A DNA stretch of 64,000 bases from Escherichia coli (GTDB taxonomy: Bacteria; Pseudomonadota; Gammaproteobacteria; Enterobacterales; Enterobacteriaceae), in NCBI RefSeq assembly GCF_030013205.1, contig NZ_CP122648.1. One strand, given 5' to 3'. The translations under genes and the position numbers were made by a program. The notes beneath the pieces are model-generated. The model saw only the letters and a list, made by a program, of their open reading frames with translations. It was not told the DNA's origin and did not search any database. This document shows positions 5,463-24,242 of the stretch, piece by piece; the first letter of the stretch is position 1, and every line of letters begins with the position of its first letter.

Positions 5463-6356
5463 CTATTTCCAGTTACAAGCAGCTTGAAGTGGTTTTAGCG
5501 CGTTTGACAGGCCGTTTAAATTGAAAGTTGCACTTACAGGGCTCTCATTATAAGGAGTTATTTTTGTATACATTTTGTTTGAGTTGGCTAGTTTTCGGAT
5601 GAAATCAATGTCATTACCTTTATAAAAAACAGCCTTTGTATCTGTAGATACTAGCCAGTTTCGCTCAACTGCTTTCTGTTTATCAAGACGATAAAGCATG
5701 CTGGTTTGTTCAAGGCCTAAATATACATCCCAACTAAGAAATACTTCGGTTTTCTTTTCTCGGCAAGCTATAAACAGAGTGGGAGTAACCGCTTCTCCAA
5801 ATGGAGTTCTGATATAATCATCACTTTCTAACGATAAAATTACATTTTTCGAATCATCAATTGGCGATGTAGTAATGGATGTGTGCCATTTTCCTACATC
5901 TGTGGCTTTCTCTAATTTTGATTCAGCTTGAACAGCTTTATCCTGTGGGAATAGTTTATCGTAGCAGTTTAGTCTGGCTTCTTTATCATTTTCTGCTCGG
6001 CATTTAGATATCTCAGAAAGATTTGGTTGCTGAGCCTCTGTTGTTACTGGCTTTTCCGTTTTAGATTTTGAGTTTACAGATGGAGTAAATGTTGGAGAAA
6101 AAAAACGATCATAACAAGATAAACGTCTGTCATCATCTTTCTCATCAGGGCATTGATCTCTGCTTTCGAATTTTTCAGCAACTTTCGTTCGAGTCGGTTG
6201 TATTGACTTATCGTAACAAGAAAGTCTGTCTTTATTATTTTCTATTGCTCGGCACTGGAGTACTGCATTGAAGTTATTATGTTCAGTTGCTGCGTGAACA
6301 GGCAGTACACTAATTGATATAAATGATGCACCTATAGAAAAAATTATATTTTTCAT
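5463..6356 (-). CDS. Secreted protein with three Cys-containing repeats (RLSCYDK-type) and a C-terminal domain of unknown function
   Basis: 297-aa ORF; N-terminal signal peptide (cleavage near VHA-AT); three ~40-aa repeats each with an R-L-(S/N)-C-Y-D-(K/R) motif; AT-rich, atypical composition; inside the prophage boundaries. Confidence 0.6.
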   Translation of the reverse strand: MKNIIFSIGASFISISVLPVHAATEHNNFNAVLQCRAIENNKDRLSCYDKSIQPTRTKVAEKFESRDQCPDEKDDDRRLSCYDRFFSPTFTPSVNSKSKTEKPVTTEAQQPNLSEISKCRAENDKEARLNCYDKLFPQDKAVQAESKLEKATDVGKWHTSITTSPIDDSKNVILSLESDDYIRTPFGEAVTPTLFIACREKKTEVFLSWDVYLGLEQTSMLYRLDKQKAVERNWLVSTDTKAVFYKGNDIDFIRKLANSNKMYTKITPYNESPVSATFNLNGLSNALKPLQAACNWK

Positions 6357-6702: not shown

Positions 6703-6954
6703 CTCCTTTGGATCAATACGAGTTGATATTTGTTACAAAACATTTTGATTTTATCAGATTTTTTTTTATTGATAAGTGTCAATTGATTAGCTGGTATAGA
6801 GTGAGACATATAGAAGGGCAGATCTGTATCAGTAGTGATGCAAAAATCCCACAGTTTCATGGAATTTTTGCATTTAGAGCCGTGAGATAGGGTGCCTTAT
6901 CGACCTTACCCTGGCAACCGATTGACGGGGGATTACTCCCCCGTCGCGGTTTCC

Positions 6955-7095
6955 TTACTGCTTACACTGTAAGAACGCCGCAAACTCCGCTCCCCAGAAA
7001 CTCATCCGTATTTCGCACAGCGAACCGTGCAACATCCAGATGATGAGGATTACCGTCACGCAGAACGTGATGGCTGTAAGCGATTTTTGCGACAT
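6955..7095 (-). CDS. hok: Hok/Gef-family type I toxin (46 aa)
   Basis: Unlisted short ORF MSQKSLTAITFCVTVILIIWMLHGSLCEIRMSFWGAEFAAFLQCKQ: single TM helix followed by SLCEIR and E-F/V-AAF motifs typical of Hok/Gef; AAGGAG Shine-Dalgarno 9 nt upstream; structured flanks. Confidence 0.65.
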   Translation of the reverse strand: MSQKSLTAITFCVTVILIIWMLHGSLCEIRMSFWGAEFAAFLQCKQ

Positions 7096-7285
7096 AGCAC
7101 TTGCTCCTTTTCCGGAGAGGCGCTAACCTTTCACTTGCTTAGGGTAGACGGTTAGGGCCTCGGTTAAACAAAAGTGTTTTCCGGGGCCTTTCCACATCTG
7201 GCCTTCGGGTATTCCCTCCGACCATCAGCCGAAAGGCACCCGCGCGTAATCTATCGCTTTTTTGTTACTCCGGCAATTCTGCTTG

Positions 7286-7546
7286 TTAATTCTGAGGTAA
7301 AGGCAAACTCATCTGATTGTTTCCCCTGTGTGAAGCTGGTAGCTCATGCCACGGGATACCTTCTGAAGAGTGAACGCCGGAGGCGTGTTTCGATGTGAAT
7401 TTATGGAAAGCTTCCAGTGTTGAGAAGCATACGCCGCATTCCAGATTGTTACACTGGTAATACTTTTGCCGCACGGTGTTTGAATCATTTTCCGGACGAC
7501 TTGTGCGGATACGGGCAGATGCGCCACAAAGCGGACAACGGAACAT
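7286..7546 (-). CDS. ogr: Ogr/Delta-type zinc-finger late transcription activator
   Basis: 86-aa ORF MFRCPLCGASARIRTSR...YYQCNNLECGVCF, with the Cys-X2-Cys...Cys-X4-Cys pattern and N-terminal similarity to P2 Ogr. Confidence 0.85.
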   Translation of the reverse strand: MFRCPLCGASARIRTSRPENDSNTVRQKYYQCNNLECGVCFSTLEAFHKFTSKHASGVHSSEGIPWHELPASHRGNNQMSLPLPQN

Positions 7547-7630
7547 AGCGACCTCCCTTAACGTGGTGTTGCCGCTATTCTAGATTGTACGTTCCCTAAT
7601 TCCAACTAACAGCTCGCTCTGTGCGAAGAG

Positions 7631-7737: not shown

Positions 7738-8760
7738 ATGGGAAGAGATATAACGCTGTACCCTAAAAAAGCAACTAGAAACGAACTTAAAAATTACCTT
7801 GAAAATTTAGGTTTTAAAAGGTGTAAACATTTGTGGGAATGGCCCCAAGGAACGTTGAATTACTCTTGGTTTGATGATACGGACTTCAAATCTACAGATG
7901 GAGTTTCGGCTGATATATATCCTGTTTCAAATGACGAATTACACATATCTGGTAATAAATGGGCATTGCATGTGCGTAATTTATATAGCGCTAGTTGGCA
8001 TGATGTAAAAATGCTTAATGATGTTCTAAAAGGCGCAAGGAGTCTTTTTGGTGGAACACTTATAGGTGATTATGGGAAAAATAGGTACGCTCCTCTATGG
8101 AAGGATTCTAGTAGTCCGATCAGTCGTGGCATTTCTTCAATATTTAATCATGTCCATCATGAGATTTCCGCTGTTAAACATGCCTTACCTGAACCTTCTA
8201 TTAAATTAAACCTACCGGAAGATGGCGGCTTATCCGAATACTTTGATTACATGCAATGTATGGATCCCAGTAGAGTTATATATAATGGATTAGTACCTTT
8301 TGCGGTTGCTATGTTTGAATACTTTTTCTCTAGAGCTTTTCAAATACTTATAAAGTACGATCCTTTCGCAATAGCAAAAAGAACATCGTATAAGCAAAAA
8401 GTTGATTTTGATATTCTGCTTGAGATAGAGAAAGGAAATATTTCAATAGAAAGTGTTATTGCAAGAAATTACACTTTTCAAAACTTAACCCACCTAAACA
8501 AAGCATATAAAGAGTGGCTGGATATAGATGTGAGAGCGATTCTTTATAAGAAAAAAAGAATTGGAAAATCAGTTGATTTTCTTGAGAATCGAATTTCTGA
8601 AATCATACAATATAGACATGGGATAGTTCATCACTTTGAGTTGGATAGGACCTTAAATCGGGATGGATATATTCATATATTAGATGCGCTAGAAAAAAGC
8701 ATAATTGAATTTATCCATTACATAGAAGGCAAATACAAATTTAAATTAAATGCGTATTAA
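7738..8760 (+). CDS. Orphan AT-rich cargo gene; hypothetical protein with HEPN-like R-x4-H motif near the C-terminus (candidate abortive-infection/defence protein)
   Basis: 340-aa ORF on the strand opposite the flanking late genes D and ogr; low GC; strong start context; C-terminal ...YRHGIVHHFELDRT...; followed by a hairpin. Confidence 0.6.
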   Translation: MGRDITLYPKKATRNELKNYLENLGFKRCKHLWEWPQGTLNYSWFDDTDFKSTDGVSADIYPVSNDELHISGNKWALHVRNLYSASWHDVKMLNDVLKGARSLFGGTLIGDYGKNRYAPLWKDSSSPISRGISSIFNHVHHEISAVKHALPEPSIKLNLPEDGGLSEYFDYMQCMDPSRVIYNGLVPFAVAMFEYFFSRAFQILIKYDPFAIAKRTSYKQKVDFDILLEIEKGNISIESVIARNYTFQNLTHLNKAYKEWLDIDVRAILYKKKRIGKSVDFLENRISEIIQYRHGIVHHFELDRTLNRDGYIHILDALEKSIIEFIHYIEGKYKFKLNAY

Positions 8761-8880: not shown

Positions 8881-9990
8881 TCACTCTGTTTCTGCTATCC
8901 ATTCCGGGATTTTTGCCTCAAGCTCAAGCTGTGTGGTAAAGCCGCTGTTATCAATGGTGTGCTCGGCTTTCGCAATAATCCAGTCCTGATTATCAATCTC
9001 GCTTTTAAATCCTGTTACCGTGCCATGCATTTCGGGGTAGAGTTCTGCACGTCCACGCACCAGCGTGATGGAAAACGATGCGGCTCCGCGTTGTAGCTGC
9101 TGCCACTTTGCCGCCGCTGCGCGTCTTGCTGCCTGCTCGTTCTGATAAGTCTTGCGTAACACAAACACATTGCCTTCCGCGCCTTCCATATAATCACCTT
9201 CACGGCTGCTGCTTTTCTCCTTTTTGGGTTTTGGCGGTTTGCGGCGTTTCACGCTGACTTTTTTCTTTTTCCCGTAATTAAGATCAAGCCAGTAAGCGCG
9301 TACCCCCGTATACGCCTCGCGGTCAGCAATGCGGAACTGATGGCGATCGCCGCTGCTGCGTGTGATGGCGAACGATGGCAACGGCTGGCCCTGTGCGTTC
9401 ACGCCACCGCCGGGCATGATGAATAACAGATTACCGCTTTTTACCGTGGTGATTGCGCCCAGCATTTCCGCCATGCGCGTAAGGAAGGACATGTCGCTTT
9501 CTTCAGTCTGGTCGGCGTGGTCGATTTCGATATCCATCAGCATTTCGCTGATTTGCGGTTTCAGGCCGTACCGATGAGCGATGGCGGATACCACACGTTC
9601 AACGGTCACATCATGCCAGGACGCCTCACGTTTAACATTAAATTCATCCCGAAAATCTGCGCTTCTGGCTGAAACAGTCAGCCTGTCCGGCGGTCCTTCG
9701 TGAGCGATTTCATCAATAATGTAAGTGCCTTTTTCTGTCAGCGGTTCCCCTTTCCAGCCAATGAGAACCGTCAGACGCGCGCCCCGTGGCGGTAGCTGCA
9801 ACTGGCCATCGGCATCATCCAGCGTGATGGTGAGCTGGTCCGCCTCAAATCCCCGGTTGTCGGTCAGTGACAGGCTCATCAGGCGTTCTGCCACGCCGGA
9901 CAGCGTTTTACCCTCGGCGAGAATATCAAAATCCGGCATTTTCACGGGGTCTGTGCCCTGACTGAGCAATTGCATGGTGGTGTCGGTCAT
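8881..9990 (-). CDS. P2 gpD-like tail protein (late control gene D family)
   Basis: ORF 8881..10122; likely true start is ATG at 9990, preceded by GGGAGGG (MTDTTMQLLSQGTDPVK...); Lys-rich central stretch and overall gpD-like size. Confidence 0.75.
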   Translation of the reverse strand: MTDTTMQLLSQGTDPVKMPDFDILAEGKTLSGVAERLMSLSLTDNRGFEADQLTITLDDADGQLQLPPRGARLTVLIGWKGEPLTEKGTYIIDEIAHEGPPDRLTVSARSADFRDEFNVKREASWHDVTVERVVSAIAHRYGLKPQISEMLMDIEIDHADQTEESDMSFLTRMAEMLGAITTVKSGNLLFIMPGGGVNAQGQPLPSFAITRSSGDRHQFRIADREAYTGVRAYWLDLNYGKKKKVSVKRRKPPKPKKEKSSSREGDYMEGAEGNVFVLRKTYQNEQAARRAAAAKWQQLQRGAASFSITLVRGRAELYPEMHGTVTGFKSEIDNQDWIIAKAEHTIDNSGFTTQLELEAKIPEWIAETE

Positions 9991-10147
9991 CTGTTCCCTC
10001 CCTGTGCGGCATGGTCGCATGTGCGTGCGGAGGGGGTTACTGCTTTTTGTTGTCGCCGTGGCGGGAGAATAGCGCAGGGGTGAGATTACGCGCGTGGTGG
10101 GTGATGATTGTTGCTGAATCATTTAACGGATACAAGGGGCTGAAGCT

Positions 10148-11332
10148 ATGAGTGAAACTCGTTTTCATGGTGCCCGTGTTACGGAAAATACCGACCTGGT
10201 AACAGCGATTAACGATGTTGATTCCAGCGTTATCGGTATCGTGGCAACGGCGGATGATGCGGACGCGAAGCTGTTCCCGCTGAACAAGCCCACATTGCTG
10301 ACCCGCGTCAATGACGTGCTGGGAAAATGCGGAACAACGGGGACGCTTTATCGTGCGCTTAAGGCCATCGCAGACCAGGTGAGCACAAAGGTGATCGTCG
10401 TTCGCGTGGCTGAACACAAAGAAGAAGACGGAAAGACGCAGGATCAACTGGTTATCGGTGGTTCTGAGGATGACGGCAGCTATACGGGGATGTATGCGCT
10501 GCTTGTTGCAGAGCAGGATGAAAGCATCGGATACCGTCCGCGTATTCTGGCCGCGCCGGAGCTGGACACGGAGGCTGTAACAAAATCCCTGTGCGTGATT
10601 GCAGGTAAACTGCGCGCGTTTGTGTATGCCTCATGTCACGGCTGTAACACGATGGCTGAGGCGATTACCTACCGCCAGAAATTCAACGAACGTGAGGTGA
10701 TGCTCTTATGGCCGGACTTCATCGCCTACAACCCGAAAAGTGGCAAAAACGAAACGTTCCCCGCGCCTGCCTATGCGTGCGGCCTTCGTGCGTACATTGA
10801 CCATGAGCAGGGCTGGCACAAATCGCTGTCCAACGTTCCGGTTAAAAATGTGCTGGGGATGTCCAGGCATGTGTTCTGGTCGTTGCAGGCCGAAGACAGT
10901 GATGCCAACAGCCTCAACAACAAAGAAATCACGACCATTATTCGTCGCAACGGGTTCCGCTTCTGGGGCAACCGCACACCGGAAACGAACGCCTACATCT
11001 TTGAGGTGTATACCCGAACCGCACAGGTGCTGGCTGATTCAATTGCGGAAGCGCAGTTTGAAACCATCGACAGTCCACTGACGCCTGCGAACGTGAAAGA
11101 TGTTATCAGTGCCATCAGGGCAAAACTGGATTCACTGGTTACTGCCGGGAAACTGATTGGGGCGTCGTGCTGGTATGACGTGGTGGATAACGGCACCACG
11201 AATTTACGTCAGGGGCGCGTGCGTATTCGCTACAAATATACGCCTGTTCCCCCGCTGGAAGACATGGAGCTTTACCAGTCGTTTACTGATGAATTCTTTG
11301 GTCCCGCATTTGCGGTGCTGGGAGGTGCCTGA
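10148..11332 (+). CDS. Contractile tail sheath protein (P2 gpFI-like)
   Basis: 394 aa; aligns by eye with P2 FI (FPLNKP, CxKLRAF, IRRxGFRFWGNRT, YxYTPVPPLE motifs). Confidence 0.9.
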   Translation: MSETRFHGARVTENTDLVTAINDVDSSVIGIVATADDADAKLFPLNKPTLLTRVNDVLGKCGTTGTLYRALKAIADQVSTKVIVVRVAEHKEEDGKTQDQLVIGGSEDDGSYTGMYALLVAEQDESIGYRPRILAAPELDTEAVTKSLCVIAGKLRAFVYASCHGCNTMAEAITYRQKFNEREVMLLWPDFIAYNPKSGKNETFPAPAYACGLRAYIDHEQGWHKSLSNVPVKNVLGMSRHVFWSLQAEDSDANSLNNKEITTIIRRNGFRFWGNRTPETNAYIFEVYTRTAQVLADSIAEAQFETIDSPLTPANVKDVISAIRAKLDSLVTAGKLIGASCWYDVVDNGTTNLRQGRVRIRYKYTPVPPLEDMELYQSFTDEFFGPAFAVLGGA

Positions 11333-11844
11333 TGGCTGTACCAAAACATCTTCGCTTTTTTACGCTGTTTGTGGATGGTGAAAACGAAGTGGGTAAGGTG
11401 ACGTCCGTCACTCTGCCTAAGCTGACGCGCAAAACCGACAGCTACCGGGGTGGTGGCATGATGGGTGCGGTAAGTATTGATCTCGGTCTGGACGACTCCG
11501 CGCTTGATGCGAGCTTTGTCATGGGGGGCGCAGTTCGTGAGCTGTTCCTTAAGTATGGCGGCACGATTGACGGCACGCTGCTGCGTTTTGCGGGTGAATA
11601 CTACACCGATGCAGAAAGCGACCTGTATGAAGTCGAAATGCGCGGACGTGTGACGGAAATTGATATGGGGGAAGCCAAACAGGGCGAAGCCACATCACAC
11701 ACTTACGCCATTAAAAACACCTACTACAAGCTGAGTGTTAACGATCGCCCGTTGTGGGAGATTGACCTGCTGAACTTCATTTACCGGAAGGACGGCAAGG
11801 ACATTGTGCCCGATCGCATCCGTTCCGCGCTCGGGCTTGGCTGA
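11332..11844 (+). CDS. Tail tube protein (P2 gpFII-like)
   Basis: 170 aa, immediately after the sheath gene with overlapping stop/start (ATGA). Confidence 0.85.
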   Translation: MAVPKHLRFFTLFVDGENEVGKVTSVTLPKLTRKTDSYRGGGMMGAVSIDLGLDDSALDASFVMGGAVRELFLKYGGTIDGTLLRFAGEYYTDAESDLYEVEMRGRVTEIDMGEAKQGEATSHTYAIKNTYYKLSVNDRPLWEIDLLNFIYRKDGKDIVPDRIRSALGLG

Positions 11845-11899
11845 TAAGTAATATGCAGGCGGCGCAGTGCGTCGCCTCTGACTGAAAAGGAGACAACTG

Positions 11900-12274
11900 A
11901 TGAAAGACATCGATACTGAAACCCGGAATAACACCGTGGCGGATGATGTGACGGCAGGTGAGGATATGGCTGTCGAACATGGCGTAAAACTGACCCGACC
12001 AATTGAGCGTGGTGGCGAAAAAATCACGTATGTGGAGATCACCGGGGCTATTGAACAGGCTGGATCCCTGCGTGGTCTGTCGCTGTCTGATGTGCTGAAT
12101 CTGAAAGCGGATACCATGTTCACGCTGTTGCCTCGCGTGACCTCGCCACGACTGGATGAAGTGATGATTAAAAAAATGTCGTCACGCGATTTTATTCAGT
12201 TGTGCGCTGTGGCTGTAAATTTTATGAGCGAGCCAGACTCTGGCGCGAAGAGCGTGCAGGAGACGGCAGCGTAA
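11900..12274 (+). CDS. Tail assembly chaperone (P2 gpE-like)
   Basis: 124-aa ORF between tube and tape-measure genes, with an overlapping -1 frame ORF (E'). Confidence 0.75.
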   Translation: MKDIDTETRNNTVADDVTAGEDMAVEHGVKLTRPIERGGEKITYVEITGAIEQAGSLRGLSLSDVLNLKADTMFTLLPRVTSPRLDEVMIKKMSSRDFIQLCAVAVNFMSEPDSGAKSVQETAA

Positions 12275-12438
12275 TCACCCTGGTGTGCTTTGAGCACATC
12301 GAAGATCTGGTGGCAGATATCGCCGCCATTTTTAACTGGTCGCCCGCCGAAATCTTCATGATGACGCCCGGCGAAGTGGTTAGCTGGCGTGAGCGGGCGG
12401 CACTTCGCAGCGGGAATGCAGACAATGAAGACTCTTGA
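12202..12438 (+). CDS. E' extension, -1 frame of the tail chaperone (predicted E+E' frameshift product)
   Basis: ORF in the -1 frame overlapping the 3' end of E; candidate slippery heptamer A-AAT-TTT at 12217..12223 in the E frame. Confidence 0.5.
   Translation: MRCGCKFYERARLWREERAGDGSVITLVCFEHIEDLVADIAAIFNWSPAEIFMMTPGEVVSWRERAALRSGNADNEDS
12217..12223 (+). promoter_or_regulatory. Candidate programmed -1 ribosomal frameshift site (AAATTTT)
   Basis: XXXYYYZ heptamer inside the E/E' overlap, in the correct phase for E to E' slippage. Confidence 0.4.
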
Positions 12439-15232
12439 CATCCGGGTCGCTTTCAGCGCCGTTGACAGGCTGACCCGGCCTGCCGAAAACGCCCGCCGCC
12501 TGATGGGGCAGTTTGGTGACTCCATCCAGCGAACGCAGGGGGCGATCAAAAATCTCGAGCGTCAGGCGCGTTCATTTGAGCGCGCCCGTGACGCTGTCAG
12601 TAAAGCGGATGCTGGCATATTGAAAGCACGACGCCAGCTTAACGCCCTTAATCAGTTACAACGCACGGGTACAGTGCTCAGCGAAAAACAACAAAAGCTG
12701 ATGCAGCAGTTAAGCACCCGGCTTGAACGCCTGAATGAATCGCGCACACGGGAAATTCAGAAAATGCGGGAGCTTGGCGGAGAGCTGAAACGCCACGGCA
12801 TTTCCCTGACAGGCAGCGATAACACCATCCAGCAGGCCATCAGACGCACCGAACAGTACAACAACCAGCTTGAACGCGAACGGCAGGCGCTTGCGCGTGT
12901 AACACGGGCGCGTGAGCGGTATTCGCGCGCGCAGGAAACAGCGGGAAAACTGAAAACAGGTGGTGCGCTGGCAATTGGTGCGGCAACGGCGGGCGGCTAT
13001 GCTGCCGGGCGTTTTTTGCAGCCTGCGATCGGGTTCGGCAAAGAGATGTCCCGCGTTCAGGCACTGACGCGAATCGACAAAAACAGCCCGCAGTTTAAGG
13101 CGCTGCGTGAGCAGGCGTTAAAACTTGGCTCTGAAACACAGTTTACTGCGAGTGATGCCGCCAGTGGGCAGAGCTTTCTGGCAATGGCTGGTTTTACTCC
13201 GCAGGCCATTCAGGCCGCATTGCCCGGTGTTCTTAATATGGCGCTGGCAGGTGGCGTCGAACTCGGCGAGACGGCTGATATAGGCTCCAATATCCTCACA
13301 CAGTTCAACCTGACAGCCGATCAAATGGACCGTGTTGGCGATACGCTGACAGCAGCATTCACCCGGACCAATACTGATTTACGCGCGCTGGGCGAAACCA
13401 TGAAGTATACCGGTCCGGTTGCCGCAAAACTTGGTATCAGTCTTGAAGAAGCGGCGGCCATGGCCGGGATGCTTGCCAATAATGGTCTTCGCGGAAGCGA
13501 TGCTGGTACGGCCATGCGCGCAAGTCTGTCCCGCCTTGCATCACCGCCAAAAGCTGCGGCTGATGCACTGAAAGAGCTGGGGGTGTCAGTTGCTGACGCC
13601 AGAGGCAAAATGCGCCCGATGGAGGATGTGCTGCTTGATCTCTATAAGGCGACACAAAAATACGGACAGGTGGACCAGGTTTCCTTCTTCAAGGACATCG
13701 CCGGAGAAGAGGCGTTCGTTGGTTTGCAGACGCTTGTTGCGGCGGCTGGTTCAGGAGAGCTGCAAAAACTGACCAGAGAATTGCAGGGGGCAAGGGGAGA
13801 GGCCGATCGCGTCGCAAAAGTAATGGCCGATAATCTTGATGGGGACCTGAAAAATCTCGACAGCGCATGGGAAGGTCTTCGTATTCGCATCAGTGATCTG
13901 GTTGACGGTCCGCTGCGTTCTGTCACGCAGTGGCTCACGCGGGTGCTTGAAAAAATCACCTCGCTGGCGCAGGCCCATCCGGTACTGACGCGCCAGCTAC
14001 TGATAGCAGGCGGTGCGTTGCTGGCAATGACTGCAACGATTGGCTCGTTGTCGCTGGTTATTGGGGTGCTTTACGGGAAGCTGGCCACCCTGCGTCTTGG
14101 TTTTGACATTCTTACCCGGTCAATGAATGTCGTCAGGGTGTTGCCTGCGCTGTGGGGAATGGTGACGGGTTCCGTTTCTTTACTGGGAGGCGCCATCGGG
14201 GCGTTGTTCAGTCCGGTTGGTCTTATCGTGGCTGCGCTTGCCGGAGCTGCCGTTCTTATCTGGAAATACTGGGATCCCATCAGGGCATTTTTTGCCGGGG
14301 TGTTCAGCGGGATTATGGAAAGGCTGACCCCGTTGCGCGAAACCTTTGAACGGTTTGGTCCTGTTTTTGACACAATCGGAAGCGGGATCAGCCAGGTGTT
14401 TAACTGGTTTAAATCGCTGCTGTCACCGATGGAGTCCAGCAAGGAAACGCTGGATAAATGTACCAGTGCTGGCGAGATATTCGGTAACGTTCTTGGCGGT
14501 GCGTTACAGCTTGTTCTGACACCTGCAAAAATGCTACTGGATACGCTGGCGTGGATACTTGAAAAACTTGGCGTCCTTCCGGATGAAGCGGAAAGGGCGC
14601 GCAAGAAAATCGAAGACGCACAGCGTGCGGCCATTCTTCAGGACAAGGTTGTCTTGCTTCAGGGTGACCTGGCGAAAATCAATCCGCCGAAGCCTGTGGA
14701 AAATGGCAATGGCACCGGAGGTAATAAACCCAAAGACAACAAACCGCTCACAGACAGCAATACCGGGACGCTACGCAGACTCAGCAAAATTGCTGATAAC
14801 ACAGGTAAGCTGGTTGATGAGACGAAAAAACGCATTGGCCCCGGCGATATTGTCTTTAAGAACCTGCCCCGCGCACTTGCTGTTCGTGGAGAGTGGCAGG
14901 AGCGGAAGATTGCGCAGGTCAGTAAGCCTGCCCCCGCAATTAATATCACACCCGTGGTCCCGGCTCCGCTGCCTCCGGCGCTGGTCCCTGTTGTTGCGGC
15001 CAGCTCCCGCCCGGTGGCGGAGGCCATACGATCTCCAGTGGCATCAGTTCCTGTAACTTCCCGTAACCGGGAGCCTGTTGCCTCCGGATTTGGTGGTGAA
15101 ATTCATGTTCATCTGCATAACGTTGTTACGCAGAATCCCCGCGAACTGGCGAAACTGGTCGGTGAAATGGTCAGGGCAGAAATGGAACGGCGCGCCCGTG
15201 CCGGGCGTGGCAGTTTTTACGATAAAGATTGA
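12389..15232 (+). CDS. Tail tape measure protein (P2 gpT-like)
   Basis: 947 aa, long coiled-coil-rich N-terminus and C-terminal hydrophobic segments, position after E/E'; true start probably a downstream Met (12416 or 12425). Confidence 0.85.
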   Translation: MSGRHFAAGMQTMKTLDIRVAFSAVDRLTRPAENARRLMGQFGDSIQRTQGAIKNLERQARSFERARDAVSKADAGILKARRQLNALNQLQRTGTVLSEKQQKLMQQLSTRLERLNESRTREIQKMRELGGELKRHGISLTGSDNTIQQAIRRTEQYNNQLERERQALARVTRARERYSRAQETAGKLKTGGALAIGAATAGGYAAGRFLQPAIGFGKEMSRVQALTRIDKNSPQFKALREQALKLGSETQFTASDAASGQSFLAMAGFTPQAIQAALPGVLNMALAGGVELGETADIGSNILTQFNLTADQMDRVGDTLTAAFTRTNTDLRALGETMKYTGPVAAKLGISLEEAAAMAGMLANNGLRGSDAGTAMRASLSRLASPPKAAADALKELGVSVADARGKMRPMEDVLLDLYKATQKYGQVDQVSFFKDIAGEEAFVGLQTLVAAAGSGELQKLTRELQGARGEADRVAKVMADNLDGDLKNLDSAWEGLRIRISDLVDGPLRSVTQWLTRVLEKITSLAQAHPVLTRQLLIAGGALLAMTATIGSLSLVIGVLYGKLATLRLGFDILTRSMNVVRVLPALWGMVTGSVSLLGGAIGALFSPVGLIVAALAGAAVLIWKYWDPIRAFFAGVFSGIMERLTPLRETFERFGPVFDTIGSGISQVFNWFKSLLSPMESSKETLDKCTSAGEIFGNVLGGALQLVLTPAKMLLDTLAWILEKLGVLPDEAERARKKIEDAQRAAILQDKVVLLQGDLAKINPPKPVENGNGTGGNKPKDNKPLTDSNTGTLRRLSKIADNTGKLVDETKKRIGPGDIVFKNLPRALAVRGEWQERKIAQVSKPAPAINITPVVPAPLPPALVPVVAASSRPVAEAIRSPVASVPVTSRNREPVASGFGGEIHVHLHNVVTQNPRELAKLVGEMVRAEMERRARAGRGSFYDKD

Positions 15233-15238
15233 GGAGTC

Positions 15239-15733
15239 ATGGCCATGATGATGATCTACGGCATGTTTGTTTTTGAGCTGCGCACGCTGCCGCATCAGCA
15301 GTTACAGCAAAACAAAAGCTGGCGGCATGTGAAAAATGAACGCGTTAACCGTTCAGCAAGCTGGCAGTATATCGGTGCAGGTGATGATCGCATCGTTCTT
15401 TCTGGTGTGCTTTATCCTGAAATTACAGGTGGCGAAGTGTCGCTGTCGCTGCTGACCACGCAGGCGTATACAGGACGCCCCTGGCCTCTTATTGATGGCG
15501 TCGGGCAGATTTACGGCATGTATGTCCTGACCGAAACGAATACGACCCGTTCCGAGTTTGATCGCTACGGTAAGGCGAAAAAGATAGAATTTTCACTGAC
15601 CCTTGAACGCTGTGATGAGGATTTGCGGGAGCGCCTGCAATCCTCATCGTTCAGCGATATGCTGTCCGGCTTCAAAGATAAAGTGACATCATCCCTTAAC
15701 AGCGCGGCCAGTTCAGTTAAAGGGCTGTTCTGA
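15239..15733 (+). CDS. Tail protein (P2 gpU-like)
   Basis: 164 aa MAMMMIYGMFVFELRTLPHQ...; N-terminal similarity to P2 U; directly follows the tape measure gene. Confidence 0.75.
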   Translation: MAMMMIYGMFVFELRTLPHQQLQQNKSWRHVKNERVNRSASWQYIGAGDDRIVLSGVLYPEITGGEVSLSLLTTQAYTGRPWPLIDGVGQIYGMYVLTETNTTRSEFDRYGKAKKIEFSLTLERCDEDLRERLQSSSFSDMLSGFKDKVTSSLNSAASSVKGLF

Positions 15734-15903
15734 TTTAATGCTGGCCACTCATACCCTCATACCTGGTAATAAGTGGCCAGTCTTAACACTCACCATTTGA
15801 TTGCACCAGTGTTAACGATTTGTTACTGGACATCAGGCACGCTGGATAGCCAGTAGAAACATACCATTAAAATTATTACAATAATTGGTCACATGATTAT
15901 CTT

Positions 15904-16467
15904 ATGCTGAATAATAGAGATATGAATATTAATGAACTTAAAGATTGTATTCACTATGAAGTAATCGGTAGCGAGCGTCCTTTCTCCTGGCGAAAGGCAA
16001 TTGTTCGCGCAATAAAACATAGAAGAGTTCGTTATTTATTTTGGTGGCGCATAGCCAAATACCTTTTTGATAAAGGCGGATACTGTCGGAAGATTGCGGG
16101 GAAAATAGAACGTTTCATTCTTGATAAATATAATGTAACAGTCCCTTTAACTGTAAATATAGGGAAAGGCTTTGATATTTCTTATCTCAACAGTGTTGTT
16201 ATCGGTCACAAAGTAACAATCGGTGAAAATTGTTCAATAAAACCAGGGGTAACTATTGGGCTGCGTGGTGATTTTAATGATATGGATATTGTTATAGGAC
16301 ATAATGTGACCATTGGTTGTAATGCCACCATTCTTGGTGGCAAAGTGCGTATAGGAAACAATGTCACAATAGGTGCTCATGCATTGGTATTGCATGATAT
16401 TCCAGATGATTCAACATTCATCACTAAATTTCAGTCTGAAGTTATCTGCTCGTCCTCCCGCACATAA
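15904..16467 (+). CDS. Hexapeptide-repeat (left-handed beta-helix) acyl/acetyltransferase, cargo at the Z/fun position
   Basis: 187 aa with tandem [LIV]-G-x-x-x-x hexapeptide repeats ([22 protein letters not shown]...[16 protein letters not shown]...); AT-rich; convergent with and overlapping the 3' end of the tail-fibre assembly gene. Confidence 0.7.
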
Positions 16468-17048
16468 CCCTGATTCATCAGCTCTGGCCATACGATATCC
16501 GGAGCTGTACTGGTGTCAATTCTACTCACTAATACTCTGTATTTTCTCCAGGAATCCAGTTGTGAATTTTCCTCGTTTGTTGCTATTTCAAGATTAACTG
16601 CATCCTGCAGAATTGCGATGTTATCTGTTGCTTCCTGGATCAACCTTGCCTTTTTCTCTTCCGCTTCCCGTATCCGAAACAGTTTTTCTGCTTCCTCATC
16701 CTTCACCCAGGATACGCCGTCCCACTTCTGATACTCCCCTGCTGGCGACAACCAGGTGACATTCTCTGGTAGCGGTCCGGGTTCAGAAATAAACAACGCG
16801 TCCCCCGATGCCACGTCATAGACCGTTTTACCACGATGGTCTTCAACAATATTCCACGATTCATTTTCACTGTTAAAAACTGCCACAAAGCCAGCAGGAA
16901 TTTCCGGTGGGGCGATATCTGTAGAATTGGCTGGCAGCCCTGTATGAGGTGGAATATATGCGTCACCTTCACCAATAAACTCATTAGTTCCGGCCAGCAG
17001 GTTATAAATTTTTACAGTACGTGATTGTTCACTCATTCTGAATGCCAT
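16431..17048 (-). CDS. Tail fibre assembly protein (P2 gpG / Tfa family)
   Basis: 205 aa; typical Tfa N-terminal region; start overlaps the stop of the upstream tail-fibre fragment (TAATG). Confidence 0.8.
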
Positions 17049-17395
17049 TATGCAAGCCTCACAATATAATTAAATGCGATGTTTTTAACGGTGTTTTCCG
17101 CGTTACCAGCAGCGTTAACGGTGATGGTGTGTCCATGTGAACCAATCGCAACAGAGTGCGTATGAGCGCCAATAGCTGATTGAGTGTGACGCCATACGCC
17201 CCACGGACCATCAGTGCCATTCCACTTATTGGCGAGTTTACGCATGTATACATTGCCGTCTCTCGTGATAAAACGTTGCGTGCCTGCAAAATTGCCAGCT
17301 GCAAAAACCTCAAGCACACCGACAGCATTATCTTCCGGGAAATTTTTCTCCAGTGTTGCGTTGGTGGATGTTGCTTTAGACCAGATGCCAGTGCA
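17048..17395 (-). pseudogene. Tail fibre gene (H-like), 3' fragment only
   Basis: Open frame from the stop at 17396..17398 to 17048 encodes ...[40 protein letters not shown], a typical tail-fibre C-terminus; no N-terminal part; fused out of frame to the truncated capsid gene. Confidence 0.7.
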
Positions 17396-18033
17396 TCAGC
17401 GTTCGCATACTTACCCGCGTGCGCCACGGTGTTGTCCATGTTACGGGAGGTCAGCGTCACGTCATTCATAACGCGTTCGCTGGCGTCGGTTCTGATGTGC
17501 TCCAGCCACCCCACGTTAACGTCCTGAAGCAACTTGTTGGTGCTGAAGTTGGACTCATCCGCGTGAGACGTGCCGTTGAAACCGATCATGATTCGGTCAA
17601 GCGCCACCTGTCGGGCAATCTGTGCGCTGATGCGGGACTGAAAATCGCTGTGTGCCGACCAGGCATCAAGCTGCGGATACGAAATAAACGTGTCGTAGTT
17701 CACCTGTTCGCACTGGTATTTGCGGTTTTTCAGATCAACCACGTTATTCGGGTTACGGCGTTTTGTTCCGTCATAACTGGTATTCGTGCGCGCAATCGGT
17801 CCTGTGGTATCCAGGAGGATTTTTTCGCCCTTCTGGTCGGTCACGCCGATCACGTTAATTCTTTTTGTAAATTCGGTGCTTTCCTTTGAGGCGTTTTCAA
17901 AACGCTGCTGTACCGAGGGTTCCACGGTAAATCGCGATACCAGTGCGGAAACCGGGATATTGTTAAGCGACGCCTGCTGCGCCATATAGCAACCCAGCTT
18001 GTTGCGGGTAATATCTGACATCACCAGATTCAT
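17381..18033 (-). pseudogene. Major capsid protein gene (P2 gpN-like), truncated after ~217 codons
   Basis: N-terminal 217 aa align with P2 N (FTVEPSV, GEKI, KYxCxQ, IMxGFNG, LQDVxVGWL, RVM); after ADALAS the frame runs into tail-fibre DNA and yields low-complexity sequence. Confidence 0.75.
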
Positions 18034-18056
18034 AAAAAATTTGCTCCTTTGTCTTA

Positions 18057-18926
18057 TCAGAAGTCAGCCAACTGGTCGGAGGCTGCGCCTGTTGCGGTGA
18101 ACCGGTTCTGCGGATCGCCGTCCTGCGTGCGCAGTTTTTCCTTCAGTTCTGCCAGCTCTGTGGTCAGTAAAGTGATTTTCTGGCTGTCCTGCTGATGGCG
18201 GGTTTCCAGCACATTAAAACGGTCGATAATGTCGGCCTGTGACGTTGCGACACCTTCCACCGCTTCCTGAATACGGGAGAAACTGGCGTCATCCGCTTTG
18301 CGGCCACGGCCAATAATCCCCATAACGCGGTTAAACCACTGGGTGCCTTCCTCCTGACGTTGTTCGGTGAGTTCGATAAGTTCTGACTCCATAGCGGCGG
18401 TAAACATCGCCACGTCTCCCTGCTGACAGTTGAATGTCATCAGTTGCATACGTTGTTGTGCCGCAAAGGCCAGACGTTCCGTGCCCAGGCTGGCGGGGGT
18501 GTCGGTCATTGCCAGCCCGCGCAGGTAAGGGCCTCCCGTGATGGTTGACTGTGGTTCCAGCTCAATACTGGAGTAAATTTTTTTACCATCGTTAAGCAGG
18601 GACATCATGCGAGCGGTCGGCTCAATTTCGGCATACAGTGCCGTGCGACCTGCCAGCGGGCCATCGGTTATGTCTTCGGTGCTCAACCCCACAACATCGC
18701 CCATAGCGGAAAACTCGCTACCGGGGAGTGGTGACAGGATGTGCTCAATATTCACACGTGCACCATAAACGGACGGGTTATAACTGGTGGCGGCAGCTTT
18801 CAGCATGTCGCCGTTGATTTCGCGCCCGTCTGCCGTTACACCGGAGACAGCCACGCGAAACTTTTTGCGGGATGTCTTTTTTTCATTAGCCATAGTTTTT
18901 GCCCCTCTGACTGGTTCTTCAGTCAT
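18057..18926 (-). CDS. Capsid scaffold protein (P2 gpO-like)
   Basis: 289 aa, similar to P2 O (FRVAVSGVTADGREI..., GLAMTDTPASLGTE); divergent from the terminase gene. Confidence 0.85.
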   Translation of the reverse strand: MTEEPVRGAKTMANEKKTSRKKFRVAVSGVTADGREINGDMLKAAATSYNPSVYGARVNIEHILSPLPGSEFSAMGDVVGLSTEDITDGPLAGRTALYAEIEPTARMMSLLNDGKKIYSSIELEPQSTITGGPYLRGLAMTDTPASLGTERLAFAAQQRMQLMTFNCQQGDVAMFTAAMESELIELTEQRQEEGTQWFNRVMGIIGRGRKADDASFSRIQEAVEGVATSQADIIDRFNVLETRHQQDSQKITLLTTELAELKEKLRTQDGDPQNRFTATGAASDQLADF

Positions 18927-22966: not shown

Positions 22967-23278
22967 TTACTCAGGAAATAACGCCCGGATATTCCCAGCC
23001 ATCTGGCTGGTTATCTTAGCCACTGGTGCAGACTGTGCTTCAAACTTTTTTGAGCTGATTTGTGTCACAGGTAACATCTCATCATCAGCCCATGCGGCCA
23101 GTCGGTAAGCCTCTGCCGGATTCGTCTTCAGAAGTGCCAGCCCGGCCAGAAAAGCCACGCGTTGGCCGCTTTTGCGGGCTTCTGGTGTAAGGCTGTCCAG
23201 CCAGGCGCATGCTTCTCCTTCGTTCTTGACGGCAGCTGGCTTCAGATAGAAACTTATCCGTCTGGTTGGTGTTGTCAT
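22967..23278 (-). CDS. parR: ParR-like centromere-binding adaptor
   Basis: 103 aa from the ATG at 23278, preceded by AGGAG 7 nt upstream and only 4 nt after the parM stop; resembles R1 ParR (RRISFYLKP...LDSLTPEARKSGQRVAFLAGLALL). The longer annotated ORF 22967..23413 overlaps parM and is rejected. Confidence 0.7.
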   Translation of the reverse strand: MTTPTRRISFYLKPAAVKNEGEACAWLDSLTPEARKSGQRVAFLAGLALLKTNPAEAYRLAAWADDEMLPVTQISSKKFEAQSAPVAKITSQMAGNIRALFPE

Positions 23279-23282
23279 TGGT

Positions 23283-24242
23283 TTACTCCTTGTCCATTGC
23301 GTACAGCCCATTAACCAGAGCAAACTGTGGCACCCCGTCCGCGATGAAAGTCGCATTAACTCCGCAGGCTTCGCGGATAGCGGGTGCCACAATCTCCGCC
23401 CCGCCACCGACAACCATCACCCGCCCGTAACCCGAAAAACCCGCCAGCGCGCGGATCACGCGTTGTTTCAGTGTTTCTTCCTTTTCACGAATAACCGCCA
23501 TCAGGCTGGCGTAATGCGCGTCATTGTGGATGTGCTGGCGCAGCCAGGCTTCATCATGGCGATGTTCGATAATGGTATTGGCGATGTGGTGACTGGTACG
23601 CATACCGTTAGTGGCCATCACCGACAGTACGGCATCGGCCATCAGGGAAACGCCTACGTGTGGATCGCAAAACACCTGGCTGATACCTGCCAGTTGTCCC
23701 TGAACCTTTGCCACATCCAGCGTGGTTCCGCCTAAATCCACAATCAGCAGGGATTCAAACGGACTCATGTCAGCCAGTGCTTTAAAGCCAGCCGGAATGG
23801 ATTCAGGCATAACCCGTACGTTACGGATAGTGAATGCTTCGCCGTTCTGGTACTCCACCGGGCGCATGACGTTCGCTTTTTTGCGGTTGATGTTGGCCAT
23901 GTCCGGCTGTGCGTTTGTGTCGAAATATTCGCTCAGTGGCAGGGTGACAACCACATCCACTTCCTGTGGTGTGATGCCTGATTTGACCAGCGCGTGATGA
24001 ATGGCAATGACATTCACATCGCTGTACTGGTATTGCGTGTCGGTCGTCTGGACAAAGCGATCGCTGACCGGATCAAAACCATAGCGCACGCCATCAAGCA
24101 TGTAGTTCGCGGGCTGCGTGCCACCGAACGGCGCAGACCATTCCGACTTGAAGCTGTTCGGGCTGATGGCGTTGCGGCGTTCGCCGTTCTCAGTCCATGC
24201 CAGCTTGATGTTGGTGGAGCCGTCATCGATACAAATTTTCAT
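23283..24242 (-). CDS. parM: ParM/StbA-family actin-like segregation ATPase
   Basis: 319 aa MKICIDDGSTNIKLAW...SPNSF...VMPESIPAG...LIVDLGGTTLD...VMVVGGGAE; close to plasmid R1 ParM along the whole length. Confidence 0.85.
   Translation of the reverse strand: MKICIDDGSTNIKLAWTENGERRNAISPNSFKSEWSAPFGGTQPANYMLDGVRYGFDPVSDRFVQTTDTQYQYSDVNVIAIHHALVKSGITPQEVDVVVTLPLSEYFDTNAQPDMANINRKKANVMRPVEYQNGEAFTIRNVRVMPESIPAGFKALADMSPFESLLIVDLGGTTLDVAKVQGQLAGISQVFCDPHVGVSLMADAVLSVMATNGMRTSHHIANTIIEHRHDEAWLRQHIHNDAHYASLMAVIREKEETLKQRVIRALAGFSGYGRVMVVGGGAEIVAPAIREACGVNATFIADGVPQFALVNGLYAMDKE

What the first reader, a model, noticed from the sequence alone, without database searches (positions are those of the whole stretch)
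15734..16467. Hexapeptide-repeat acyltransferase at the Z/fun cargo position
Between the tail-fibre assembly gene and the F block, where P2 has Z/fun, there is an AT-rich gene for a 187-aa left-handed beta-helix acyltransferase (WcaF/WbbJ/LacA-like repeats) on the opposite strand to the tail genes. It could modify surface polysaccharide (lysogenic conversion or receptor masking) or act on a small molecule. Either way it is accessory, not a P2 backbone gene.
Basis: partly seen in the sequence, partly recalled or inferred. Interest (0 to 1): 0.45.

Follow-up and report, generated by a model that had tools for sequence, protein, structure and literature searches.

The report
Tail-fibre-linked phage acetyltransferase-like gene
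A small accessory gene in a decayed P2-like prophage of E. coli encodes an acetyltransferase-fold protein that moves between unrelated phages together with the tail-fibre tip and its chaperone. It has lost the usual catalytic histidine, so it probably alters a cell-surface sugar, but not by the textbook mechanism.

Summary
The gene is real: an ORF at 15904-16467 (+), more likely starting at 15922 (181 aa). It has about 36% GC against 50-57% in the flanks, two Hexapep repeats, and a confident model of a helical N-domain plus a left-handed beta-helix.

It is CysE/WcaB-type, not WcaF/WbbJ/LacA-type, and passes no curated family cut-off.

The position is only partly as described. The gene is convergent with the tail-fibre assembly gene, as fun(Z) is in P2. 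Its other neighbour is U, because the FI-U block is inverted in this lineage.

It is accessory:
- It occurs in 183 of 5426 complete E. coli genomes.
- A sibling prophage lacks it.
- One copy is disrupted by IS1.

It travels as a roughly 1.85-kb cassette (promoter-like region, gene, tfa, fibre tip) shared by P2-like prophages and P1-like phage-plasmids; 47-kb phage-plasmids also carry the gene beside tfa. In IMG/VR, 31 of 32 close relatives and about half of the 35-49% relatives sit convergent to a tfa gene.

The catalytic His/Asp dyad is replaced by Tyr94/Thr79 in the whole subclade at 53% identity or more, yet dN/dS is 0.02-0.08.

Most likely it is a lysogen-expressed modifier of an envelope glycan, and so of a receptor or serotype. 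This is inferred, not shown. It is an uncharacterised variant of a known kind, of moderate interest.

The parts
15740..15781 (+). Stem-loop directly after the U stop codon (10-bp stem GCUGGCCACU/AGUGGCCAGU). It may terminate or insulate the F-U late operon upstream of the cargo gene. It has no U-tract.
   Evidence: MFE -22.5 kcal/mol, z -4.6, 0 of 200 shuffles as stable. It is present in the P2-like and 47-kb plasmid backgrounds but not in the P1-like one.
15834..15921 (+). Conserved upstream region of the cargo gene, carrying a sigma-70-like promoter at 15854-15882 (TAGAAA, 17 nt, TACAAT; TATAAT in the P1-like allele).
   Evidence: One search gives the promoter scan, 9 of 12 matches. One search shows the region nearly invariant across the P2-like, 47-kb plasmid and P1-like backgrounds. 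Homology to the P1-like plasmids starts here. Promoter activity is inferred, not shown.
15904..16467 (+). CDS for a CysE/WcaB-type left-handed beta-helix acetyltransferase-like protein. It is 187 aa from the first ATG and more probably 181 aa from the ATG at 15922 (RefSeq WP_001447286.1). Residues 9-75 form the helical domain and about 76-175 the beta-helix. Tyr94 and Thr79 stand where the family has the catalytic His and Asp/Glu.
16431..17048 (-). Tail-fibre assembly (chaperone) gene, the homologue of P2 G and lambdoid Tfa. It is convergent with the cargo gene, overlaps it by 37 nt, and is part of the same mobile cassette.
   Evidence: phrog_105, E 3e-93; cassette; 88% identity to K-12 tfaQ over part of its length.
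17048..17389 (-). Remnant of the 3' end of the tail-fibre gene, i.e. the receptor-binding tip. In intact relatives the last ~630 nt of the fibre gene belong to the cassette. Here it is truncated by the deletion that joins it to a capsid-gene fragment.
   Evidence: the fibre C-terminus matches tail-fibre PHROGs; RefSeq partial pseudogenes; locus coordinates converted with offset 6733; shared block L003 5101-6947.

Best explanation
The gene is a moron-type accessory gene of a P2-like prophage. It encodes a soluble, presumably trimeric, CysE/WcaB-type left-handed beta-helix acyl-CoA transferase-like protein.

It is probably transcribed from its own promoter, independently of the late tail operons. 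It is inherited and exchanged as one cassette with the tail-fibre chaperone and the receptor-binding tip of the fibre.

The most likely role is modification of an envelope glycan while that glycan is still on the cytoplasmic side. Candidates are the LPS core, an O-unit, ECA, or a colanic-acid-type Und-PP or nucleotide-sugar intermediate. Such a change would alter the surface structure seen by phages with related fibres, or by the immune system, giving lysogenic conversion or superinfection exclusion.

The family's His/Asp catalytic dyad is replaced by Tyr/Thr, so the chemistry is either non-canonical or weak.

Shown: the gene, the fold, accessory status, cassette linkage, dyad replacement and purifying selection.

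Inferred: expression in the lysogen, glycan substrate, receptor masking.
For: Gene and fold:
- establish the ORF, the low GC, the Hexapep repeats and the model (pLDDT 93.7).
- The top 50 PDB fold matches are all CysE-type enzymes, TM about 0.7.
- The nearest named families are EpsC, CysE, WcaB and NeuD/PglB. E. coli WcaB is 38% identical over 98 aa.

Glycan link:
- More distant full-length relatives that keep the His lie inside sugar clusters. P0123 (41%) follows a neuB/neuC/CMP-synthetase nonulosonic-acid cluster. P0085 sits among glycosyltransferases.
- Some phage relatives sit next to YibB/HtrL (above cut-off), a WaaZ-like gene and a weak GT9 gene.

Accessory status:
-.

Cassette and linkage:
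- An 1847-bp block of 94.9% identity is shared by a P2-like prophage and a P1-like phage-plasmid. It covers the upstream region, the gene, tfa and the last ~630 nt of the fibre gene.
- The same gene lies next to tfa in 47-kb phage-plasmids and in Hafnia phage yong2 at 53% identity.
- His-type relatives occupy the same convergent slot in Citrobacter phiNP, in P1-like JL22 and in another E. coli P2-like prophage.
- In IMG/VR, 31 of 32 Tyr-type loci have a convergent tfa within 200 nt. So do 20 of 42 His-type loci, and 3 more abut a fibre gene directly.

Expression and selection:
- A conserved promoter-like upstream region and a stem-loop after U suggest independent expression.
- dN/dS is 0.02-0.08 between alleles.

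Precedent:
- The prophage-encoded beta-helix O-acetyltransferase NeuO modifies the K1 capsule (PMC3046976) and raises phage resistance (PMC13001214, abstract).
Against: - No experiment bears on substrate or phenotype. Published work that noticed the gene leaves its role open (PMC9603915; PMC6456863 lists it only as a 'fitness' gene).
- The catalytic His (CysE His158) is Tyr and its Asp/Glu partner is Thr/Lys/Val in every member at 53% identity or more. An O-acetyltransferase normally needs that base.
- Close relatives (40-55%) are solitary genes, not inside polysaccharide clusters.
- Carriers come from many different sources and strain backgrounds. A target specific to one O-antigen is therefore unlikely.
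- Linkage to tfa could reflect a shared moron slot plus hitch-hiking rather than a functional tie. Some relatives sit next to int/att instead.
- The promoter is only a consensus match.
Confidence: 0.42

Rival explanations
1. The protein is a pseudoenzyme or binding protein. The Tyr subclade would have lost acyl transfer and would act by binding, for example by sequestering a nucleotide-sugar or Und-PP intermediate, or by blocking a host enzyme or pathway. The outcome could still be an altered envelope or some other lysogen phenotype.
For: - Both residues of the catalytic dyad are replaced throughout the subclade, while 213 of 234 family members keep His.
- The CysE substrate-binding residues are also absent.
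- Strong purifying selection shows the protein still matters, but not that it is an enzyme.
- The NeuO paper states that all beta-helix acyltransferases crystallised by 2011 share a catalytic His (PMC3046976).
Against: - The fold, the repeat register and the beta-helix glycines are fully conserved.
- From my own knowledge, some beta-helix sugar N-acetyltransferases (the QdtC/WlbB class) work without a catalytic base, so losing His need not abolish transfer.
- The Tyr is invariant, which suggests a functional replacement rather than decay.
- No binding partner is known.
Confidence: 0.2
2. The protein is a small-molecule or metabolic acetyltransferase. It would be a true serine O-acetyltransferase, as annotated, or an antibiotic or metabolite acetyltransferase of the Vat/CatB/LacA/MAT kind that benefits the lysogen.
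For: - RefSeq and GenBank annotate it as 'serine acetyltransferase'.
- The closest solved structures are CysE.
- It is a solitary gene that needs no pathway partners.
Against: - Scores fall far below the curated cut-offs: cysE 70.5 against 210.65, PRK11132 44 against 397, Vat/CatB/LacA/MAT 25-32 against 300-475.
- CysE residues Asp143, Asp157, His158, Arg192 and His193 align to Thr, Ser, Tyr, Met and Asp (residue roles are from my own knowledge of the E. coli and H. influenzae SAT structures).
- The protein is about 90 aa shorter than CysE at the N-terminus and lacks the CysK-binding C-terminal tail.
- Nothing under this reading explains the persistent position beside fibre genes.
Confidence: 0.1
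3. The function is directed at the virion. The protein would act during lytic growth on the phage's own fibre or chaperone, or on the dying cell's envelope so that progeny are not trapped on debris. It would not be a lysogenic-conversion factor.
For: - The gene is tightly linked to tfa and the fibre tip across P2-like, P1-like and other myoviruses.
- In JL22 it sits inside the cin-invertible fibre segment.
Against: - The gene is on the opposite strand to tfa and the fibre gene, with its own conserved promoter-like region.
- It has low GC, typical of morons.
- A sibling phage with a different fibre cassette does without it, and one copy is disrupted by IS1.
- It is retained intact and 100% identical in this defective prophage, which has lost most tail and head genes.
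- To my knowledge, beta-helix transferases are not known to acylate proteins.
Confidence: 0.08
4. It is a dedicated intracellular anti-phage defence gene, in the way P2 fun(Z) blocks T5, working through something other than receptor change.
For: - It occupies the fun(Z)-like slot downstream of G.
- P2-like phages carry defence hotspots (PMC9122126).
Against: - There are no PADLOC hits.
- The hotspot characterised in PMC9122126 is the tin/old locus, and neither hotspot paper mentions an acetyltransferase.
- No defence system known to me uses this fold as an effector.
Confidence: 0.07

Closest known systems
NeuO, the polysialic-acid O-acetyltransferase of prophage CUS-3 (E. coli K1)
   Same: Both are prophage-encoded soluble left-handed beta-helix acetyltransferase-fold proteins carried as cargo, not as part of the host polysaccharide cluster (PMC3046976). 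NeuO alters a phage receptor or capsule and raises phage resistance (PMC13001214). From my own knowledge, neuO lies next to the tailspike gene, as this gene lies next to tfa and the fibre gene.
   Different: - No sequence relationship beyond the superfamily. NeuO is absent from the 53 PDB sequence hits at E <= 1e-3.
- NeuO is of the LacA/MAT/NodL type and has catalytic His119 and Trp143. This protein is CysE/WcaB-type with Tyr at the His position.
- There is no phase-variable repeat tract here.
- The backbone is a myovirus (P2-like or P1-like), not P22-like.
WcaB, the colanic-acid O-acetyltransferase of E. coli
   Same: It is the closest E. coli paralogue: 38% identity over the beta-helix and the same short CysE-like architecture. 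It acts on a cytoplasmic Und-PP-linked sugar intermediate, which is the kind of substrate proposed here.
   Different: - WcaB keeps the His and Glu dyad.
- The score is 59.8 bits against a cut-off of 194.65.
- WcaB lies inside the wca cluster, whereas this gene is solitary phage cargo.
CysE, serine O-acetyltransferase
   Same: It is the best structural match, with a helical N-domain plus a beta-helix. It is also the source of the database annotation.
   Different: - The catalytic and serine-binding residues are absent.
- The protein is much shorter.
- The score is below the cut-off.
- The context is phage, not cysteine metabolism.
P2 fun(Z) cargo locus
   Same: Both lie immediately downstream of the tail-fibre assembly gene, on the opposite strand, and are non-essential lysogenic-conversion-type cargo.
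   Different: - fun(Z) is a 528-aa protein with no annotated similarity to this one. Homology was not tested directly.
- In P2 the other neighbour is FI. Here it is U, because FI-U is inverted.
His-type 'serine acetyltransferase' genes of phages JL22 (sacF), phiNP (sat) and ESSI2_ev015
   Same: They belong to the same protein family (37-49% identity) and are also uncharacterised. JL22 and phiNP carry them in the same slot, convergent with tfa.
   Different: They retain the His and Asp/Glu dyad. ESSI2_ev015 carries its copy next to int rather than tfa.

Membership tests
Hexapeptide-repeat (left-handed beta-helix) acyltransferase superfamily | [quoted passage not shown] | tested here: met
   Pfam Hexapep twice. 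AF2 model pLDDT 93.7, with short strands from residue 77 to 150. All top fold matches are beta-helix acetyltransferases.
Hexapeptide-repeat (left-handed beta-helix) acyltransferase superfamily | Catalytic histidine acting as general base | tested here: not met
   The position aligned to CysE His158 and the WcaB His is Tyr94. It is His in 213 of 234 relatives and Tyr in all 14 sequences (query included) at 53% identity or more, plus one distant sequence. No other His is invariant within the subclade.
Hexapeptide-repeat (left-handed beta-helix) acyltransferase superfamily | Homotrimer that binds acyl-CoA at subunit interfaces, with transfer activity | not testable with these tools
   Only a monomer model without coordinates was available. 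No biochemistry was possible.
Serine O-acetyltransferase (CysE) | Score above the curated family cut-off | tested here: not met
   TIGR01172 70.5 bits against 210.65; PRK11132 44.2 against 397.
Serine O-acetyltransferase (CysE) | Catalytic dyad Asp143/His158 and serine-binding residues Asp157, Arg192 and His193 (E. coli numbering, from my own knowledge) | tested here: not met
   These align to Thr79, Tyr94, Ser93, Met127 and Asp128.
Serine O-acetyltransferase (CysE) | Full-length N-terminal helical domain and a C-terminal tail ending in Ile that binds CysK | tested here: not met
   The protein is 181-187 aa against about 273 aa. It aligns only to chain residues from about 110 onward. Its C-terminus is ...SSSRT.
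WcaB colanic-acid acetyltransferase | Score above the curated cut-off, and location in a wca/EPS cluster | tested here: not met
   TIGR04016 59.8 bits against 194.65. The gene sits in a prophage between U and tfa, not in the wca cluster.
   WbbJ 39.8 bits against 243, LacA 31.6 against 347, MAT 30.5 against 314, WcaF 26.1 against 192. All rank below EpsC, CysE and WcaB. No such structure is among the top 50 fold matches.
NeuO-like prophage polysaccharide O-acetyltransferases | Sequence homology to NeuO/OatWY with catalytic His and Trp, and a phase-variable 5' heptanucleotide repeat | tested here: not met
   NeuO is not among the PDB sequence hits at E <= 1e-3. There is no tandem repeat in the coding 5' end.
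NeuO-like prophage polysaccharide O-acetyltransferases | Prophage cargo placed next to the gene for the receptor-binding protein | tested here: met
   The gene is convergent with tfa and the fibre gene here and in many phages.
P2 fun(Z) cargo slot | Non-essential gene downstream of G, on the opposite strand, between G and FI | tested here: inconclusive
   Downstream of and convergent with the G homologue: yes. Between G and FI: no, since the other neighbour is U. Sequence homology to Fun(Z) was not tested.
Known anti-phage defence systems (PADLOC) | Match to a defence-protein model | tested here: not met
   0 families at E <= 0.1.

The most novel reading that the evidence does not exclude
Temperate myoviruses of enterobacteria (P2-like, P1-like and 47-kb phage-plasmids) would exchange a three-part 'host-range plus immunity' cassette: fibre tip, chaperone, and a cognate envelope-modifying beta-helix protein. 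The modifier would mask the very receptor that the co-transferred tip recognises. One lineage would have rewired the enzyme's active site from His/Asp to Tyr/Thr, giving either new chemistry (for example base-independent N-acylation or a different acceptor) or a non-catalytic blocker.
Probability: 0.2. Interest if true: 0.65.

Novelty: new variant of a known kind. Interest (0 to 1): 0.4.

Why it matters
Receptor-modifying cargo decides which phages can infect a lysogen, and it can change serotype or immune recognition.

If this protein masks the receptor of the fibre tip it travels with, then swapping one 2-kb cassette changes two things at once: the host range of a phage and the susceptibility of its lysogen. 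That matters for phage-therapy design and for reading E. coli prophage content. About 3% of complete genomes carry the gene, including pig ETEC strains and P1-like phage-plasmids.

The His-to-Tyr active site is held under strong purifying selection. It is a simple test case for how left-handed beta-helix transferases can work, or be repurposed, without their general base.

Tried and rejected
- PADLOC: no hit. A recognised defence protein is rejected.
- NCBIfam: every named family is far below its cut-off. CysE, WcaB, WcaF, WbbJ, LacA, Vat and CatB membership are all rejected.
- Tandem repeats: none in the coding 5' end. NeuO-style phase variation is rejected.
- Inverted repeats flanking the FI-U block: only short, chance-level pairs. 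They do not explain the inversion.
- Rfam over 15000-17500: only a sub-threshold IS009 match inside tfa.
- Literature searches found no functional study. The P1-like plasmid paper states that the reason for the gene is unknown. The two P2-hotspot papers do not mention it.
- Contexts of the 40-55% relatives were checked for polysaccharide clusters. None was found; they are solitary genes or lie at prophage edges.
- A trimer model to locate Tyr94 relative to the CoA tunnel was considered and dropped, because the tools do not return model coordinates.

Full report
**1. Is it there?**

Yes. An intact ORF runs from 15904 to 16467 on the + strand and encodes 187 aa. GC falls to 0.35-0.40 over 15750-16500, against 0.50-0.59 in the tail genes on either side.

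Pfam finds two Hexapep repeats. The protein matches phage family phrog_2154 over its full length, E 4e-79, annotated 'unknown function'. AlphaFold2 with a 31-sequence alignment gives pLDDT 93.7, with four helices at residues 9-75 followed by a beta-helix. This is not a chance ORF.

RefSeq starts the gene at the second ATG, 15922, giving 181 aa (WP_001447286.1). The homologues' N-termini align to that Met. Both ATGs are conserved, so the start remains unresolved, with 15922 favoured.

**2. Where is it?**

The window is E. coli. It is 100% identical over the finding to strain K_EC180 and to several pig ETEC chromosomes.

The surroundings are a P2-like prophage lying next to fabB and flk. The gene order is:
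- ogr (-)
- a 340-aa cargo ORF (+)
- D (-)
- FI, FII, E/E', T, U (+)
- the finding (+)
- tfa, the G homologue (-)
- a fibre C-terminal remnant (-)
- a truncated capsid gene (-)
- O (-)
- P and Q (+)
- parM-type partition genes (-)
- A (-)
- int (+)

This order rests.

The prophage is defective. The fibre remnant is fused to a capsid-gene fragment near 17389, which removes M through I and most of H.

The P2 record itself reads G(+), terminator, fun(Z)(-), FI...U, D, ogr(+). Relative to G, D and ogr, the FI-U block is therefore inverted here. That is not an artefact of this strain. Intact relatives in strains 631, RIVM_C040348, SCU-124, EC20017429 and L2_E1649 have the same order.

It is wrong in another: the other neighbour is U, not FI, and the gene shares its strand with FI-U.

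**3. What kind of protein?**

It is CysE/WcaB-type, not WcaF/WbbJ/LacA-type.
- The best NCBIfam hits are EpsC (80.7 bits against a cut-off of 150), cysE (70.5 against 210.65) and WcaB (59.8-62.2 against about 195). WbbJ, LacA, MAT, WcaF, Vat and CatB score far lower. Nothing reaches a curated cut-off.
- The closest solved sequences are serine acetyltransferases, E 6e-12.
- All of the top 50 Foldseek PDB matches are CysE, TM about 0.7.
- E. coli WcaB is 38% identical over the beta-helix.

**4. The active site is not canonical.**

Three independent alignments agree: phmmer against PDB, MAFFT with WcaB, and a 234-sequence family alignment.
- The general-base histidine of the family (CysE His158, the WcaB His) corresponds to Tyr94.
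- Its carboxylate partner 15 residues upstream (CysE Asp143) corresponds to Thr79.
- The CysE serine-binding residues Asp157, Arg192 and His193 correspond to Ser93, Met127 and Asp128. The roles of these residues come from my own knowledge of the E. coli and H. influenzae SAT structures.

Across the family the position is His in 213 sequences, Asn in 5 and a gap in 1. It is Tyr in 15 sequences: the query, 13 sequences at 53% identity or more to it, and one distant sequence, P0240. Hafnia phage yong2 also carries the Tyr. Every relative in that ranked list at 49% identity or less with a residue there has His, apart from occasional Asn and P0240.

Other subclade-specific changes are Pro114 (Gln in 71% of the His-type), Cys139 and His159. 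No alternative His is invariant within the subclade.

The protein is nevertheless under strong purifying selection. Between the window allele, the 47-kb plasmid allele and the P1-like plasmid allele, dN/dS is 0.02-0.08, with dS up to 0.31.

So this is a maintained and functional protein, whose chemistry is either unconventional or lost. The NeuO structure paper notes that every beta-helix acyltransferase crystallised by then had a catalytic His (PMC3046976). From my own knowledge, a class of sugar N-acetyltransferases (QdtC, WlbB) manages without a base, so loss of His does not prove inactivity.

**5. Accessory and mobile.**

The 734-bp finding occurs in 183 of 5426 complete E. coli genomes, at 156 chromosomal and 59 plasmid places.

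Plasmid carriers are about 47-kb non-mobilizable phage-plasmids, where the gene lies between repA and tfa. They also include plasmids of about 95-118 kb. In the one examined in detail it lies between the lysis genes and tfa plus the fibre gene, as in a P1-like phage-plasmid.

A sibling P2-like prophage, SCU-124, shares the flanks at 92-94% identity. It replaces the stretch from just after U to about 690 nt into the fibre gene with a different tfa and tip and no acetyltransferase. One copy, in strain E8, is split by IS1.

A direct blastn of an intact P2-like prophage against a P1-like plasmid gives a single 1847-bp block at 94.9% identity. It begins 88 nt upstream of the 15922 ATG and ends about 630 nt into the fibre gene. 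This defines a cassette: upstream region, gene, tfa, fibre tip.

The tfa-plus-tip allele is found at 80% coverage or more in 219 genomes. The gene is found at that coverage in 180.

**6. The position beside fibre genes is old and recurrent.**

- Hafnia phage yong2 (53% identity, Tyr-type) has the order gene, then tfa and fibre convergent with it.
- Citrobacter phiNP 'sat' (40%, His-type) has the same arrangement.
- P1-like JL22 'sacF' (37%, His-type) sits between U and tfa, inside the cin-S-U...tfa-stf region.
- E. coli EC20017429 carries a His-type gene (37%) in exactly the U|gene|tfa slot of the same P2-like lineage.

An IMG/VR scan returned 80 loci. Of the 75 with at least 700 nt of downstream sequence:
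- 31 of 32 Tyr-type loci have a convergent tfa within 200 nt.
- 20 of 42 His-type loci (34-49% identity) do as well.
- Three more His-type loci abut a tail-fibre gene directly.
- The remainder lie next to an integrase, a repressor or other genes.

A minority of relatives sit at the int/att end instead (ESSI2_ev015 and P0020).

**7. Hints to substrate.**

More distant full-length relatives that keep the His lie inside sugar pathways. P0123 (41%) directly follows a PglF/DegT/PglD/NeuB/NeuC/CMP-synthetase nonulosonic-acid cluster. P0085 sits among glycosyltransferases together with NeuB, NeuC and a CMP-synthetase-family gene.

Among the viral loci, one His-type relative neighbours YibB/HtrL (364.9 bits against a cut-off of 342). 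One neighbours a WaaZ-like gene (74 against 200). One neighbours a weak GT9 heptosyltransferase-like gene. These are hints only, and some may be host flank.

The 40-55% relatives are solitary. That argues for an acceptor that needs no dedicated partner genes.

**8. Expression.**

About 95 nt upstream of the gene are nearly invariant across all three phage backgrounds. They contain TAGAAA, 17 nt, then TACAAT, which is TATAAT in the P1-like allele.

A strong stem-loop at 15740-15781 follows the U stop codon (-22.5 kcal/mol, z -4.6). Together with the low GC, this fits a moron with its own promoter. No expression data were available.

**9. Interpretation.**

Most likely (about 0.4): a lysogen-expressed, cytoplasmic, CysE/WcaB-type transferase modifies an envelope glycan intermediate and so changes a receptor or serotype. 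It would resemble NeuO of CUS-3 in logic but not in lineage.

Main rival (about 0.2): the Tyr subclade is a non-catalytic binder.

Lesser rivals are a small-molecule or serine acetyltransferase, a virion-directed late function, and a non-receptor defence gene.

Published work has noticed the gene but not explained it. [quoted passage not shown] The C. rodentium prophage paper lists the phiNP homologue as a 'fitness' gene (PMC6456863).

**10. Verdict.**

The gene is real and accessory. It is a known kind of cargo, a prophage beta-helix acetyltransferase beside a receptor-binding module, in an uncharacterised family.

Two features are worth following up: the tight cassette linkage across P2-like, P1-like and 47-kb phage-plasmids, and the replaced catalytic dyad under purifying selection.

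Interest is moderate (0.4). Novelty: new variant of a known kind.

Noticed in passing
window 17048-18033 (junction near 17389): The prophage is defective. A C-terminal remnant of the tail-fibre gene is fused to a truncated P2-type major capsid gene, which deletes M through I and most of H. The cargo gene and tfa remain intact.
   Followed up: partly
window 10148-15733 versus 8881-10122 and 16431-18926: The FI-FII-E-T-U block is inverted relative to D, ogr and the H-G operon when compared with P2. Several intact E. coli prophages share the same order, so it is a lineage trait. No flanking inverted repeats explain it.
   Followed up: partly
window 7738-8760 (+): A 340-aa cargo ORF lies between ogr and D. 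It has only a weak HEPN_RiboL-PSP Pfam match (E 3.7e-4) and no PHROG, NCBIfam or PADLOC hit. In sibling prophage SCU-124 the same slot holds a YecA-family gene, so this is a second variable cargo locus and possibly a defence gene.
   Followed up: partly
window 22967-24242 (-): ParM-type partition genes (phrog_691, phrog_2515) sit between the portal gene Q and the replication gene A, i.e. in the tin/old hotspot. This matches the remark in PMC9122126 that about a quarter of P2-like phages carry a plasmid-partitioning system there.
   Followed up: partly
window 5463-6356 (-) and about 6950-7550: A VasI-like (T6SS-associated) gene (E 3e-21, below cut-off; phrog_1848) and a Hok/Gef toxin gene lie at the ogr end of the prophage. 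C. rodentium prophage phiSM is reported with a VasI-family ORF1 and a partition gene, which suggests a related phage.
   Followed up: no
window 16507-16705 (-): A sub-threshold Rfam match to IS009 (80.8 bits against a gathering score of 117, E 5e-18) lies inside the tfa coding sequence. It probably reflects sequence homology to a K-12 cryptic-prophage tfa region rather than a separate RNA gene.
   Followed up: no
window 15748-15763: An 8-bp tandem duplication, CTCATACC twice, lies in the loop of the stem-loop after U. It is specific to this allele; the other backgrounds have one copy.
   Followed up: no
L028 (phage JL22) 273-7489: In this P1-like phage the His-type homologue sits between U and tfa, within the cin-S-U...tfa-stf region. 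If that region inverts as in P1, the gene would flip with the alternative fibre tips.
   Followed up: no
L009 6001-7697: An Enterobacteriaceae chromosome (strain BIT-l23) carries three tandem hexapeptide-repeat genes. The first is 49-52% identical to the finding and of the His-type. They are not in a phage.
   Followed up: no
L107 3611-4471; L108 3810-4490; L074 3024-4157: In IMG/VR contigs some His-type relatives neighbour LPS-core-type genes: YibB/HtrL (above the curated cut-off), a WaaZ-like gene and a weak GT9 heptosyltransferase-like gene. This could be a phage LPS-modification module or simply host flank.
   Followed up: partly
L023 9574-9660: Sibling prophage SCU-124 has a short tfa pseudogene remnant on the + strand between U and the functional tfa. 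It may be a relic of an earlier convergent or invertible pair of fibre modules at this slot.
   Followed up: no
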